A stretch of 64,000 nt of DNA from a virus. Its lineage: Duplodnaviria; Caudoviricetes. This document shows, in pieces, positions 39,169 to 49,173 of this stretch; position 1 is the first letter of the stretch, and the number at the start of each line of letters is the position of its first letter. Where the stretch lies: the IMG/VR virus record IMGVR_UViG_3300020069_000003, positions 1-64,000 of that record, one strand, 5' to 3'. Under the pieces are notes generated by a model. That model was given only the letters and a program-made list of their open reading frames with translations, was not told where the DNA came from and ran no database searches. A program made the translations under genes and the position numbers.

Positions 39169-39303
39169 GGACCAGAAATCGGATGCGTCAAGCCCGTTCA
39201 AACCGGGCGTCCCCTCGGACGGGGTGTGGGGTTCGATTCCCCTTGATGTCGGCACAAAAAGGGCGGCGGCCCGCGCGCAGGTTCGAGTCCTGCCTGGTCC
39301 ACT
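39169..39303 (+). ncRNA. tRNA-like structured RNA with three T-loop hairpins
   Basis: GGACCAG/CTGGTCC 7-bp closing stem stacked on GCAGG-TTCGAGT-CCTGC; internal GCCCG-TTCAAAC-CGGGC and GGGG-TTCGATT-CCCC. Confidence 0.6.
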
Positions 39304-46643: not shown

Positions 46644-46785
46644 GTCTCTCGGGGAGAAGCCTCGTGTGTGTGCGCTCTCGGATGAGTGCGTGCGTGCGAT
46701 ATCCCCGGCTTTTTGCGGGAGGTGTTCCATCCCCCCCGGAACGGCCTCCTGGGGGCCCGTTCCCTGGGTTTTATCCGGGCCGGAA

Positions 46786-46815
46786 TTGACAGCCTGGCAA
46801 CTGGTCCGGTACCGT
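46786..46815 (+). promoter_or_regulatory. Y-RNA array promoter TTGACA-18-TACCGT with operator TTGAC-AGCCT-GGCAA
   Basis: Predicted start near 46822, just before RNA1. Confidence 0.65.
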
Positions 46816-46823
46816 GGTCCCCA

Positions 46824-46902
46824 GAACGAGATGAACGGCAGTGGGTTACCCCAGTTATCGGAACCGGCTAGTACCGCCCGCAGCCAAATCCGTTTCTCGT
46901 TC
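46824..46902 (+). ncRNA. Y RNA-like 1 (short)
   Basis: GAACGAGA/TCTCGTTC terminal stem; GAGATGAACG-N6-GGTTAC motif. Confidence 0.7.
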
Positions 46903-46931
46903 GCAAGACAGCACAGACACACGTACATACG

Positions 46932-46994
46932 GTCCGAATTGACGCAGATCGGTTACCTGGCATGGAGAATCCGGCCTGCACCCGTTATTCGGAC
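46932..46994 (+). ncRNA. Y RNA-like 2 (short)
   Basis: GTCCGAAT/ATTCGGAC stem; begins GGTCCGA like canonical Y RNAs; TGACG-N6-GGTTAC. Confidence 0.7.
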
Positions 46995-47030
46995 GACCGT
47001 TTGAAGCACGACAGCCCCACCTGGTCTCCA

Positions 47031-47171
47031 GACCAGCCGAGATGAACGAGTGTCGGTTACCGTCTCAAAACCGGACAACGCGGGTTCGAATCCCGTCGCC
47101 GTCTCCGGACGGTGTAGTGTAGCGGCCTAACACGTTAAACCCGGCAGTCACCCCAGCTTTCTCGGCTGGTC
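47031..47171 (+). ncRNA. yrlA: YrlA-type Y RNA 3 (permuted tRNA module)
   Basis: 12-bp terminal stem; T-arm GCGGGTTCGAATCCCGT, then loop-closed acceptor hairpin, then D-arm GTGT..ACAC. Confidence 0.85.
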
Positions 47172-47206
47172 CCACCAGGGCACGGCCACGCACCACCCCG
47201 GATCTA

Positions 47207-47342
47207 CCGGGCGAGATGAACGCAGATCGGTTACCACTGTTAATGGAGTGTTGCAGGTTCGAGTCCTGTCGCCAGCCCCCGGGCGGCGTAGCTTAACTGG
47301 CAAAGCACTTATCCCGGTCCGCACGTCCCTTTTCTCGTCCGG
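47207..47342 (+). ncRNA. yrlA: YrlA-type Y RNA 4 (permuted tRNA module)
   Basis: 10-bp terminal stem; CTGTTAA Asn-like loop, T-arm GCAGGTTCGAGTCCTGT, acceptor hairpin, D-arm GCTT-AACTGGCA-AAGC. Confidence 0.85.
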
Positions 47343-47349
47343 CCCAGGA

Positions 47350-47413
47350 GGGCCAGTAGCTCAACACGGCAGAGCGGCGCAGGTTGCGGGTTCGAACCCC
47401 GCCTGGTCCACCA
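47350..47413 (+). tRNA. anticodon-arm-less tRNA-like RNA with Ala identity (G3:U70, A73, encoded CCA)
   Basis: GGGCCAG/CTGGTCC-ACCA, D-arm GCTC/GAGC, T-arm GCGGG-TTCGAAC-CCCGC, only 10 nt between the D and T arms. Confidence 0.7.
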
Positions 47414-47414
47414 G

Positions 47415-47447
47415 CCCGGCCCGTAACCCCCCCCCCGGCGGGCCGGG
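47415..47447 (+). terminator. 9-bp hairpin with poly-C loop
   Basis: CCCGGCCCG / CGGGCCGGG. Confidence 0.45.
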
Positions 47448-47487
47448 TGTCTTATTCGCACAACGAATTGAAGGGAGCATCACCGCC

Positions 47488-49173
47488 ATGTCTGACGCAC
47501 TGTCCAGGCACAACCCGTACGATCCGCCGCAGACCCAGCCGCTGCCGGGTCGCGAAACCGAGATGGTTCGCAACCCCGAGGGCGGCTACGTCTTCGTCAA
47601 GGACGTGTGGACCCGGCTGTCCGATTTCCTGGTGCTGGGTACCGAGGGCGGGACCTACTACGCCGACGAGCGCACCCACACCTACCAGAACATCGAGGCG
47701 GTGCGGCTCGCGCTGCTGGAGGACGGCCCCCGGGCGGTCCAGACCGCAGTGGAGTACTCCACCGGACGCCCGCCCCGCGCCCCGCGCAACCACCCGGCCC
47801 TGTACGTCGTCGCCTACGCGCTGGCGGCGGGCGACCTGGAGACCAAGCGGGCGGCGGCCAAGGCCGTGCCCAAGGTCGCCCGCACCACCGACCACCTCGC
47901 CCACCTGTTCGGCTACTGGAAGCAACTCAGCTCGAAGCCGGGCGGGCGGGGTGGTGCAGGGCGCGCCCCGGTCGGTGCGAACTCCCGGGCGACCCGCCGT
48001 GCCTGGATCAGCTGGTTCACGGACCGCACGCCGGAGCAGGTGGCGTACACCCTGCTGAAGGGACGGTCCCGCAAGACCGGGTCGGGCGAGGACTTCAGCC
48101 CCGGACACCTGCTGTCGCTGGTCCGGCCGGTGCCGTCGAACGAGGCCGAGCAGGCGCTGTACGCACTGGCCACCGGCCGCAAGACCCCGATGGAGGTGTC
48201 GGGCCACTTCGCCGCCGCGAAGGCCTTCTACGAGGCGCAGCGTGCGGACACCCCGGCCAAGGCGGTCAAGGTGATCAACGCCTACCACGTCCCGTGGGAG
48301 TTCCTGCCGGACGAGGTGCTGAAGGACGCCAGGGTGTGGCGGGCGCTGATCCCCCACCTGGGCATGACCGCCCTGATCCGCAACCTCGCCCGGATGACCA
48401 GTCTCGGGGTGTTCGAGCCGTTCGACGAGTCGGTGGGGCGGGTGGTGTACCGACTGACCGACGCGGGCGAGCTGCATCGGGGCCGAATCCACCCGTTCGA
48501 TCTGCTGCTGGCGCGTCTGGTGTACTCTTCCGGGTTCGCCCAGCCGAATCTGAAGGCACCGGCCCGTACCTGGGTGCCGGACGGACAGATAGTCGATGCG
48601 CTGGATCTGGCGTACACGCTGGCCGTCCAGGTTGCCGACAAGTCCCCCGGCCGCCTGGTCGTCGCGGTCGACTCATCCGGTTCGATGGGCCAGATGGTCC
48701 GGCACGGCGGGTCCCACCTCGGGTCGTGCTACCACCTCGGTACGGCGGTCGCGGCCACCCTGATGCGCAGCTTCGACGGCGACTGCTACCCGGTCGAGTT
48801 CGACAGCGTCTGCAGGCCGTCGAAGCTGCGGGCGGGGATGTCGCTGGGCGAGATCTACAGCCTGCGGCACGACGGCGGCGCCACCGACTGCTCCGCCCCG
48901 ATCGAGTGGGCGCTGCGGAACAACGTCGTGTGCGATGCGTTCGTGCTGATCACCGACAACGTCAGCTGGTCGGGCAACCGCCACACCTCGAAGGTCCTGG
49001 AGGACTACCGGCGCTCGATCAACCCCCAGGCGCGTGTGATCGTGTCGGCGATGGTGGCGAACGGACACTCGGTGGCCGATCCGACGGACCCGGGTGTGGT
49101 CAACGTCGGCGGTTTCGACTCCAGCCTGCCGACCCTGATCGCGGGCTACATGCGGACCGGCGGCGCGTTCTGA
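47488..49173 (+). CDS. rsr: Ro60/Rsr TROVE-domain RNA-binding protein
   Basis: MVRNPEGGYVF, FLVLGTEGGTYY, MTALIRNLARM, RIHPF; vWA MIDAS DSSGSM, GGATD, LITDN. Confidence 0.93.
   Translation: MSDALSRHNPYDPPQTQPLPGRETEMVRNPEGGYVFVKDVWTRLSDFLVLGTEGGTYYADERTHTYQNIEAVRLALLEDGPRAVQTAVEYSTGRPPRAPRNHPALYVVAYALAAGDLETKRAAAKAVPKVARTTDHLAHLFGYWKQLSSKPGGRGGAGRAPVGANSRATRRAWISWFTDRTPEQVAYTLLKGRSRKTGSGEDFSPGHLLSLVRPVPSNEAEQALYALATGRKTPMEVSGHFAAAKAFYEAQRADTPAKAVKVINAYHVPWEFLPDEVLKDARVWRALIPHLGMTALIRNLARMTSLGVFEPFDESVGRVVYRLTDAGELHRGRIHPFDLLLARLVYSSGFAQPNLKAPARTWVPDGQIVDALDLAYTLAVQVADKSPGRLVVAVDSSGSMGQMVRHGGSHLGSCYHLGTAVAATLMRSFDGDCYPVEFDSVCRPSKLRAGMSLGEIYSLRHDGGATDCSAPIEWALRNNVVCDAFVLITDNVSWSGNRHTSKVLEDYRRSINPQARVIVSAMVANGHSVADPTDPGVVNVGGFDSSLPTLIAGYMRTGGAF

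What the first reader, a model, noticed from the sequence alone, without database searches (positions are those of the whole stretch)
47350..47413. 64-nt tRNA lacking the anticodon arm but retaining full alanine identity
Seen: a perfect 7-bp acceptor with G1:C72, G2:C71, G3:U70, A73 and encoded CCA, an intact D-arm and T-arm, but only GGCGCAGGTT between them. Known: AlaRS recognises G3:U70/A73 independently of the anticodon, as in tmRNA and minihelices. Inference: an aminoacylatable, non-decoding RNA immune to anticodon nucleases. It could act as a decoy, an Ala donor for tRNA-dependent transferases, a ribosome-rescue mimic, or a Ro60 cargo. It is not simple decay, because all other elements are intact.
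Basis: partly seen in the sequence, partly recalled or inferred. Interest (0 to 1): 0.75.

Follow-up and report, generated by a model that had tools for sequence, protein, structure and literature searches.

The report
Anticodon-armless tRNA ending phage Y-RNA operon
A soil phage carries a conserved 64-base RNA gene shaped like an alanine tRNA whose codon-reading arm is cleanly missing; it closes the small-RNA operon in front of the phage's Ro60 gene and most likely marks where tRNA-processing enzymes cut the transcript, rather than serving as a translation adaptor.

Summary
Window 47350-47413 has a perfect 7-bp acceptor stem (G3:U70, A73, encoded CCA), a D arm and a T arm, with only 10 nt where 23 belong. 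It scores 46.2 bits on the Rfam tRNA model; ARAGORN finds nothing.

- **Not an artefact or recent deletion.** Three independent assemblies hold it, one from a strain about 2% diverged. A phage whose Ro60 is only 62% identical carries the same 13-nt gap while the flanks have diverged.
- **Origin.** It derives from the tRNA-Ala(GGC) that relatives keep full-length at this position, the last RNA gene of a Y-RNA operon.
- **A family.** Six further IMG/VR contigs without Ro60 carry the same architecture. All seven acceptor pairs covary (98.6% of cells paired; 0 of 500 shuffles as good).
- **Alanine identity is not conserved.** It is A3:U70 in the closest armless copy and G:C or C:G in others.

Best reading (about 0.45): a non-decoding tRNA body kept as an RNase P and 3'-processing signal. 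It would set the 3' end of the last Y RNA, 7 nt upstream, and separate the RNAs from the terminator and Ro60 leader. A trans-acting, possibly alanylated tRNA mimic remains open. This scan had already noted armless tRNA-likes in other phages. I found no published description.

The parts
46786..46815 (+). Promoter-like site of the RNA operon: a -35 hexamer, an 18-nt spacer and a TAnnnT-type -10
   Evidence: Read. A similar -35/-10 pair sits at the same place upstream of the first Y RNA in L014, L015, L104, L020 and L107. The consensus scan did not flag it. It is inferred, not mapped.
46824..46902 (+). Y RNA unit 1 (short, no tRNA-like module)
   Evidence: The 5' motif and a complementary 3' strand were read. 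It has the same build as the units in relatives.
46934..46992 (+). Y RNA unit 2 (short, no tRNA-like module)
   Evidence: Read.
47033..47169 (+). Y RNA unit 3, YrlA type (T arm, closed acceptor hairpin, D arm)
   Evidence: Partial Rfam YrlA match of 20.6 bits at 47079-47133, below the gathering score. The closing stem was read.
47207..47342 (+). Y RNA unit 4, YrlA type. Its closing stem ends 7 nt before the armless element.
   Evidence: Rfam YrlA match of 28.9 bits at 47224-47323, below the gathering score. The core is conserved in L105, L018 and L100.
47350..47413 (+). Anticodon-armless tRNA-like gene. Acceptor 47350-47356 with 47403-47409; D arm 47359-47375; linker 47376-47385 including the 5-nt variable loop; T arm 47386-47402; A73 at 47410; CCA at 47411-47413.
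47414..47456 (+). G+C-rich hairpin with a weak T-rich tail, a terminator-like site directly after CCA
   Evidence: A hairpin sits at the same place after the last tRNA in L100, L101, L105 and L107.
47488..49173 (+). Ro60 (TROVE plus vWA) gene, with a ribosome-binding site 8 nt upstream
   Evidence: Pfam vWA_Ro60 at 6.6e-36 and TROVE at 2e-20. Homologues start at the same residue.

Best explanation
The element is a tRNA-Ala(GGC) gene that lost positions 29-41, leaving only the top two base pairs of the anticodon stem. It has since been kept by selection as a tRNA 'torso' that cannot decode.

In this phage it is the last RNA gene of a single transcription unit: promoter, four Y RNAs, armless tRNA, hairpin, Ro60 leader. 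The proposed mechanism follows.
1. The nascent transcript folds into the acceptor/T-arm stack with the D/T-loop elbow.
2. RNase P cuts at 47349/47350 and leaves the last Y RNA with a 7-nt 3' tail.
3. 3' processing at the encoded CCA frees the element from the hairpin and from any read-through Ro60 mRNA.
4. A stable 64-nt L-shaped RNA with a CCA end is released. AlaRS could probably charge it in this phage, but charging is likely a legacy of its origin and not its function.

Shown: the structure, its derivation from the tRNA-Ala of this position, its conservation and covariation, and its place in the operon. Inferred: co-transcription, the cleavages, the stability and any charging.
For: Structure and score.

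Same position in relatives:
- Full-length tRNAs of varied identity sit between the last Y RNA and a hairpin. These are Ala(GGC) in L101, L103, L107 and L108; Arg(ACG) in L018 and L101; Asp(GTC) in L014 and L020; Lys, Asn and Ser in L103, L104, L106 and L108.
- Identity is therefore interchangeable.
- The first tRNA starts 7-10 nt after the last Y RNA's closing stem in the window, L018, L101 and L105.

Decoding is dispensable at this position. L100 has two tRNA bodies with 5-nt and 4-nt 'anticodon loops', and L104 has one with a 4-nt loop. All three still score 39-60 bits or are called by ARAGORN.

Derivation: the body is 41/48 identical to the tRNA-Ala(GGC) of L103 and L108.

Selection:
- L105 (Ro60 62% identical) has the same 13-nt gap. 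Apart from a D-loop insertion, the element is about 94% identical, while spacers and the terminator have diverged.
- In the 8-member family, 98.6% of cells are paired, 11 of 18 pairs show compensatory change, and 0 of 500 shuffles reach this.

Family context: members sit at the end of a tRNA array 23 nt before a start codon (L234), 17 nt before a start codon (L237), and after a tRNA-Ile (L233).

Precedents:
- M. smegmatis YrlA is cut by RNase P and receives CCA in vivo (PMC4201824).
- Plant mitochondrial t-elements are tRNA-like signals cut by RNase P and RNase Z at transcript ends (PMC1920247).
Against: - No transcript ends are known. The RNA-labelled runs hold the whole 77-kb genome as one contig, so they do not show transcription.
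- L015/L023 and prophiGD43A-5 have no tRNA at this position, so a tRNA is not required for Y RNA production.
- RNase P and RNase Z need little more than the acceptor/T-arm helix, yet the D arm and the tertiary-pair nucleotides are kept in all 8 members. That may point to a partner that reads the whole L shape.
- L235 looks like a stand-alone gene with its own terminator and no neighbouring RNA to be cut from.
- G3:U70 is present in 4 of 8 armless members, against 3 of 30 full-length tRNAs with the same D stem and variable loop. Charging may therefore matter, although shared descent from tRNA-Ala could explain the excess.
Confidence: 0.45

Rival explanations
1. It is a trans-acting tRNA mimic. 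The released L-shaped RNA is the functional product: a free-standing counterpart of the tRNA-like domain of YrlA, with an open CCA end and no Ro60-binding stem. It would bind a tRNA-recognising factor such as AlaRS, EF-Tu, SmpB, a modification enzyme, an acceptor-end toxin, or the unknown YrlA partner. In G3:U70 copies it would be alanylated without being able to decode.
For: - The whole tRNA core is conserved in 8 members, not just the RNase P minimum: D stem invariant, A14, A15 with U48, G18G19 and the T loop.
- G3:U70 with A73 is enriched, 4 of 8 against 3 of 30 controls.
- L235 is a stand-alone gene.
- YrlA units in the same operon mimic the same three arms.
- AlaRS charges minihelices without an anticodon (Francklyn and Schimmel 1989, as listed in PMC9976931).
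Against: - G3:U70 is lost in L105 (A:U), the closest armless copy, and in L233, L237 and L238.
- No common neighbouring protein was found, and the other members have no Ro60.
- The enrichment for alanine identity may reflect common descent or ascertainment, because the search patterns were modelled on a tRNA-Ala body.
Confidence: 0.3
2. It is a neutral relic: a dead tRNA-Ala gene that lost its anticodon arm by slippage across the hairpin and has not yet decayed.
For: - Relatives have the full tRNA-Ala here.
- The remnant is symmetric, keeping two bases from each strand of the stem, as expected from deletion across a hairpin.
- Armless forms are rare: none among about 417 ordinary tRNAs in 119 unrelated phage loci.
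- Some relatives have no tRNA at this position.
Against: - All 16 stem pairs and the tertiary-pair nucleotides are intact.
- The same deletion is kept in L105 at about 94% identity while flanks have diverged, and in L235 (41/48).
- The family shows compensatory changes in all seven acceptor pairs.
Confidence: 0.12
3. It is a DNA-level feature, such as an attachment or recombination site resembling the 3' part of a host tRNA gene.
For: Phage attachment sites often copy tRNA 3' halves (general knowledge). The T arm and acceptor 3' strand are tRNA-like.
Against: - The element includes the 5' acceptor strand and D arm, which attachment cores lack.
- It lies inside an RNA operon with no integrase nearby.
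- Covariation preserves RNA pairing, not DNA sequence.
- An exact search for its core in 185,579 species genomes found nothing.
Confidence: 0.03

Closest known systems
Canonical tRNA-Ala(GGC), as found at the same operon position in related phages (L101, L103, L107, L108)
   Same: Acceptor stem (identical 5' strand in L103 and L108), G3:U70, A73, D arm, variable loop and T arm. 41 of 48 comparable body positions are identical.
   Different: Positions 29-41 are absent, so there is no anticodon and no decoding. ARAGORN does not call it.
YrlA-type bacterial and phage Y RNAs (Rfam RF02553; Chen et al. 2014, PMC4201824)
   Same: A tRNA mimic without an anticodon arm, next to Ro60 and in the same operon. 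M. smegmatis YrlA is an RNase P and CCA-adding enzyme substrate.
   Different: YrlA is circularly permuted (T arm, closed acceptor hairpin, D arm) and joined to a Ro60-binding stem. This element has the canonical order, an open acceptor stem with CCA and no Ro60-binding stem.
Plant mitochondrial t-elements (Forner et al. 2007, PMC1920247); mascRNA-type tRNA-like 3' modules work similarly (from my own knowledge)
   Same: Non-decoding tRNA-like folds with a conserved T arm, placed at transcript boundaries and cut by RNase P and RNase Z.
   Different: Different domain of life, no sequence relation, and less regular cloverleaves. Cleavage has not been shown here.
tRNA-like domain of tmRNA
   Same: An alanine-type acceptor stem (G3:U70, A73, CCA) and T arm without an anticodon.
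   Different: There is no mRNA-like part and no pseudoknots. A true D stem is present. Rfam tmRNA does not match.
Synthetic alanine minihelices and anticodon-deleted tRNA-Ala (Francklyn and Schimmel 1989, cited in PMC9976931)
   Same: They show that AlaRS needs only the acceptor helix with G3:U70 and A73.
   Different: They are laboratory constructs. The natural element also keeps the D arm and elbow.
Armless tRNA-like genes noted earlier in this scan in other phages (e1-3488084, e1-5324937, e1-5373638, e1-5319284)
   Same: The same idea: a tRNA body without the anticodon arm, conserved among related phages and often between genes.
   Different: Different sequences and parent tRNAs. None was reported in a Y-RNA/Ro60 operon. 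These are unchecked AI notes.

Membership tests
Decoding tRNA (Rfam RF00005) | 7-bp acceptor stem, discriminator base, D arm with G18G19, and T arm with a T-loop | tested here: met
   Scores 46.2 bits against a gathering score of 29.
Decoding tRNA (Rfam RF00005) | Anticodon arm: 5-bp stem and 7-nt loop carrying an anticodon | tested here: not met
   13 model positions align to 0 bases. ARAGORN finds no tRNA.
tRNA-Ala identity set (bacteria: A73, G2:C71, G3:U70, G4:C69, G20; PMC9976931) | Major determinants G3:U70 and A73, plus G2:C71 | tested here: met
   They are not conserved: A3:U70 in L105, and G:C or C:G in L233, L237 and L238.
tRNA-Ala identity set (bacteria) | Minor determinants G4:C69 and G20 | tested here: not met
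   C4:G69 and C20 are read. The full-length tRNA-Ala genes of L103 and L108 share C4:G69.
tRNA-Ala identity set (bacteria) | Actual alanylation by AlaRS | not testable with these tools
   Needs an in vitro or in vivo charging assay.
YrlA / Y RNA (RF02553) | Terminal Ro60-binding stem with the conserved 5' motif | tested here: not met
   No YrlA match over 47350-47413 at E up to 10. The motif seen in units 1-4 is absent.
YrlA / Y RNA (RF02553) | Permuted order: T arm, loop-closed acceptor, D arm | tested here: not met
   The order is canonical and the acceptor stem is open.
YrlA / Y RNA (RF02553) | Encoded next to Ro60 | tested here: met
   It ends 74 nt upstream of the Ro60 start. Six family members have no Ro60 nearby.
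tmRNA | mRNA-like reading frame and pseudoknots between the halves of the tRNA-like domain | tested here: not met
   The element is only 64 nt and gives no Rfam tmRNA match.
tRNA-like processing signals (t-elements) | tRNA-like fold with a conserved T-arm motif, placed at a transcript boundary | tested here: met
   It starts 7 nt after the Y4 closing stem and lies directly before the hairpin. L234 and L237 lie 23 and 17 nt before start codons.
tRNA-like processing signals (t-elements) | RNA ends that coincide with the element's ends; cleavage by RNase P and RNase Z | not testable with these tools
   Only contigs were available, and they cannot show RNA ends.
Phage anticodon-armless tRNA-like family (defined here: N26, four bases, 5-nt variable loop) | Perfect acceptor stem, D and T arms, a 10-nt linker, and covariation across members | tested here: met
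   Eight members. 98.6% of cells paired, 11 of 18 pairs with compensatory change, 0 of 500 shuffles as good, slid controls 36-49%.

The most novel reading that the evidence does not exclude
Phages carry a conserved class of chargeable but non-decoding alanine tRNA bodies that act in trans on the translation or RNA-quality-control machinery. Possible modes are a free counterpart of the YrlA tRNA-like domain, a competitor of the tmRNA tRNA-like domain for AlaRS, EF-Tu or SmpB, or a sponge for toxins that attack tRNA acceptor ends. Here one such RNA would have been recruited into a Ro60/Y-RNA operon.
Probability: 0.2. Interest if true: 0.85.

Novelty: new variant of a known kind. Interest (0 to 1): 0.55.

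Why it matters
Natural tRNAs that lack a D arm or a T arm are known. A conserved, covarying family that lacks the anticodon arm does not appear in the review of non-canonical tRNAs I read (PMC7609411) or in the five literature searches I ran.

If the processing reading is right, phages use stripped tRNA bodies as compact cut-here signals in RNA operons, as plant mitochondria use t-elements. Annotators should then stop ignoring them or calling them pseudogenes.

If the trans-acting reading is right, it gives a natural test of whether an anticodon-free, alanine-accepting tRNA is charged and what it does in a cell. It would also give a new handle on the still unknown partner of the tRNA-like domain of bacterial Y RNAs.

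The two natural variants, G3:U70 in this phage and A3:U70 in L105, form a ready-made experiment.

Tried and rejected
- **Assembly error or very recent deletion:** rejected.
- **Link between the armless form and Ro60 in other lineages:** 80 metagenome Ro60 loci (30-77% identity) and the IMG/VR Ro60 loci were scanned with a structural script. Only the window and L105 have the armless form. The six other family members have no Ro60.
- **Exact searches for the junction:** the 25-nt junction found nothing in IMG/VR or in one genome per species. A Ro60-based search of genome contigs found nothing, so the host remains unknown.
- **BLAST of the 64 nt against INPHARED phages:** only T-arm matches.
- **Evidence of transcription from RNA-labelled runs:** not usable, because X2 holds the whole genome as one contig.
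- **Thermodynamic support:** the cloverleaf-like fold is the minimum-energy structure of the isolated RNA, but it is no better than shuffles (z = -0.43). With flanks, the minimum-energy fold breaks the acceptor stem. This is uninformative, as is usual for tRNAs in G+C-rich sequence.
- **A common protein neighbour** (lead from note e1-5319284, a small cysteine-rich protein): none seen downstream of L233-L238.
- **The four linker bases as a dimerisation palindrome:** seven of eight members are self-complementary there. I attribute this to the retained top two base pairs of the old anticodon stem and not to selection. The search pattern fixed the linker length, so no preference for that length can be claimed.
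- **Literature:** five searches found no description of such phage RNAs.

Full report
**1. What is there**

Window 47350-47413 reads as a tRNA without an anticodon arm.
- The acceptor stem has 7 bp, with G1:C72, G2:C71 and G3:U70. A73 and an encoded CCA follow.
- U8 and A9 are present.
- The D stem has 4 bp and a 9-nt loop holding A14, A15 and G18G19.
- The T stem has 5 bp and a canonical 7-nt loop.
- Ten nucleotides join the D and T arms. The last five are an ordinary variable loop, and its final U can pair with A15.

Rfam's tRNA model scores the element at 46.2 bits (gathering score 29; E = 1.1e-06 for the window). It aligns everything except 13 positions of the anticodon arm. ARAGORN reports no tRNA in the window. 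The window is 64 kb of a 77,480-bp IMG/VR virus record with direct terminal repeats. Two ordinary tRNAs, Met(CAT) and Ser(GCT), lie outside the window.

**2. Not an artefact**

Contigs from runs X1 and X2 hold the region without any difference. DNA run X5 holds a variant strain with 22 substitutions and 6 gaps over 46700-47800. None of these lies inside the element. The runs labelled as RNA contain the whole genome as one contig, so they say nothing about transcription.

**3. Surroundings**

- Upstream lie four Y-RNA-like units (46824-47342). Each has the same 5' motif and a closing stem. The last two are YrlA-like, with a permuted T arm, closed acceptor hairpin and D arm. Their Rfam YrlA scores are 20.6 and 28.9 bits, below the family threshold.
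- A promoter-like site lies at 46786-46815. A similar -35/-10 pair occupies the same place in relatives.
- The closing stem of unit 4 ends at 47342, 7 nt before the element.
- A G+C-rich hairpin with a weak T tail follows directly after CCA.
- Ro60 (TROVE plus vWA) starts at 47488.
- Neighbouring genes include a primase-polymerase and a DinG-type helicase.

**4. Relatives**

I fetched Ro60-based loci from IMG/VR, JGI metagenomes and Logan assemblies. They show the same operon build, and they place ordinary tRNAs between the last Y RNA and the hairpin.

| Content of this position | Loci |
|---|---|
| Ala(GGC), with G3:U70 and A73 | L101, L103, L107, L108 |
| Arg(ACG) | L018, L101 |
| Asp(GTC) | L014, L020 |
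| Lys, Asn, Ser | L103, L104, L106, L108 |
| No tRNA | L015/L023, prophiGD43A-5 |

- Three tRNAs at this position have intact bodies but shortened anticodon loops: L100 with 5 nt and 4 nt, and L104 with 4 nt.
- The window's body is 41/48 identical to the tRNA-Ala(GGC) of L103 and L108, which share its 5' acceptor strand.
- The element is therefore a tRNA-Ala(GGC) that lost 13 nt.

**5. Conservation**

L105 is a 74-kb phage contig with the same gene order, but its Ro60 is only 62% identical. It carries the same armless element with an identical 10-nt linker.
- The 28 nt from the D-loop through the T loop are identical.
- The T-arm differences are compatible with pairing.
- A hairpin of about 22 nt is inserted in the D loop.
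- Position 3:70 is A:U instead of G:U.
- Spacers and the terminator are diverged.

I searched IMG/VR with patterns covering only the stretch from the 3' strand of the D stem to the T loop. This returned six contigs of 42-68% G+C (L233-L238). Every one proved to be an armless tRNA-like gene with a perfect 7-bp acceptor stem and a D arm.

On the alignment of the eight members:
- 98.6% of pair cells are standard pairs.
- 11 of 18 pairs, including all seven acceptor pairs, show compensatory change.
- None of 500 shuffles reaches this, and slid controls give 36-49%.

An earlier, looser pattern found 11 more armless or stub-armed elements with other linkers, many inside phage tRNA arrays. Armless forms are rare: I found none among about 417 ordinary tRNAs in 119 unrelated phage loci. 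None of the non-family loci holds Ro60.

**6. Alanine identity**

G3:U70 with A73 occurs in the window, L234, L235 and L236. L105 has A:U, and L233, L237 and L238 have G:C or C:G.

Among full-length phage tRNAs with the same D stem and variable loop, 3 of 30 have G3:U70. The excess suggests descent from tRNA-Ala or some benefit of charging. However, my patterns were modelled on a tRNA-Ala body and the members may share ancestry, so I do not treat the excess as proof.

A further point from general knowledge: anticodon point mutants of tRNA-Ala stay chargeable and would misincorporate alanine. Loss of the whole loop or arm may therefore be the only harmless way for such a gene to stop decoding. 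That could enrich alanine-type bodies among armless survivors.

**7. Mechanism**

The best-supported reading is a processing signal. The evidence:
- The identity of the tRNA at this position is interchangeable among relatives.
- Decoding has been lost repeatedly there.
- The first tRNA always starts a few nucleotides after the last Y RNA.
- The last tRNA is always followed directly by the hairpin.
- In other family members the element lies 17-23 nt before a start codon, or at the end of a tRNA array.

RNase P recognises the acceptor/T-arm stack and the elbow. The anticodon arm is not needed (established knowledge). M. smegmatis YrlA is cut by RNase P and receives CCA in vivo (PMC4201824). Plant mitochondrial t-elements give a tested precedent for tRNA-like cut signals (PMC1920247).

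Three things count against this being the full story: the whole L-shape core is retained, one family member stands alone (L235), and G3:U70 is in excess. I therefore keep a trans-acting tRNA mimic at about 0.3, a neutral relic at about 0.12 and a DNA-level role at about 0.03.

**8. Novelty**

The review of non-canonical natural tRNAs (PMC7609411) and five literature searches gave no description of anticodon-armless tRNA genes in phages.

This scan has noted the phenomenon before on other DNA: e1-3488084, e1-5324937, e1-5373638 and e1-5319284. Those are unchecked notes. One of them led me to the t-element paper.

I classify the element as a new variant of a known kind, namely tRNA-derived, non-decoding tRNA-like modules. 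Its specific placement at the end of a phage Y-RNA/Ro60 operon is new.

Noticed in passing
window 46824-47342: Four tandem Y-RNA-like units behind one promoter-like site. Units 3 and 4 are YrlA-type permuted tRNA mimics that score below the Rfam threshold (20.6 and 28.9 bits against 69).
   Followed up: partly
window 47451-47490: The Ro60 leader carries a motif like the 5' motif of the Y RNA units, just before the ribosome-binding site. A similar leader motif is seen in L100, L101, L102 and L018.
   Followed up: partly
window 39169-39303: A second tRNA-like element. Its acceptor stem is the same as in the L105 armless copy, with A73 and a canonical T arm, but about 100 nt with further T-loop-like hairpins replace the D and anticodon arms. 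Rfam gives only a weak tRNA-Sec match (23.3 bits).
   Followed up: partly
L100 148-218 and 223-296; L104 1219-1289: tRNA genes in the Y-RNA operons of relatives with intact bodies but 5-nt or 4-nt 'anticodon loops'. This is repeated loss of decoding at this operon position.
   Followed up: partly
L105 1294-1379; L235 2253-2356: Armless elements with large hairpin insertions in the D loop (31-nt and 49-nt loops), at the same insertion point.
   Followed up: no
L100 ~310-480, L101 ~300-480, L018 ~880-1080, L107 ~1370-1470: A conserved G+C-rich, stem-rich segment of roughly 100 to 200 nt lies between the operon hairpin and Ro60 in relatives. The window lacks it. It may be another structured RNA or a leader.
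   Followed up: no
L104 1219-1289; L108 ~545-615: An odd tRNA-like gene with a C1:G72 acceptor stem, G73 and an encoded CCA, conserved in two relatives just before the tRNAs that follow the Y RNAs.
   Followed up: no
L001 3992-4113 (MW584167 26001-26123): The annotated 'tRNA-Thr(tgt)' of Mycobacterium phage prophiGD43A-5 overlaps a YrlA-like unit (Rfam YrlA 39.3 bits). That unit is one of four or five upstream of the phage's Ro-like gene, so the annotation is probably wrong.
   Followed up: partly
L005 2467-2531; L011 1214-1278: Homologous tRNA-like genes whose anticodon arm is reduced to a 3-4 bp stub with a 2-4 nt loop, in the tRNA arrays of two different viral contigs.
   Followed up: no
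L099 2150-2700 (Gordonia phage Rabbitrun, NC_060133): An array of Y-RNA-like units with T arms lies upstream of an 'RNA-binding protein' that is probably Ro60. It overlaps small annotated 'hypothetical protein' genes, and a nucleotidyl transferase gene lies nearby.
   Followed up: no
G000 74551-74619 and 76270-76353 (outside the window): The phage's only ordinary tRNA genes, Met(CAT) and Ser(GCT).
   Followed up: partly
run X2: A library labelled as a metatranscriptome holds the whole phage as one 77,367-nt contig. It is either DNA carry-over or genome-wide transcription, and it cannot serve as evidence of expression.
   Followed up: no
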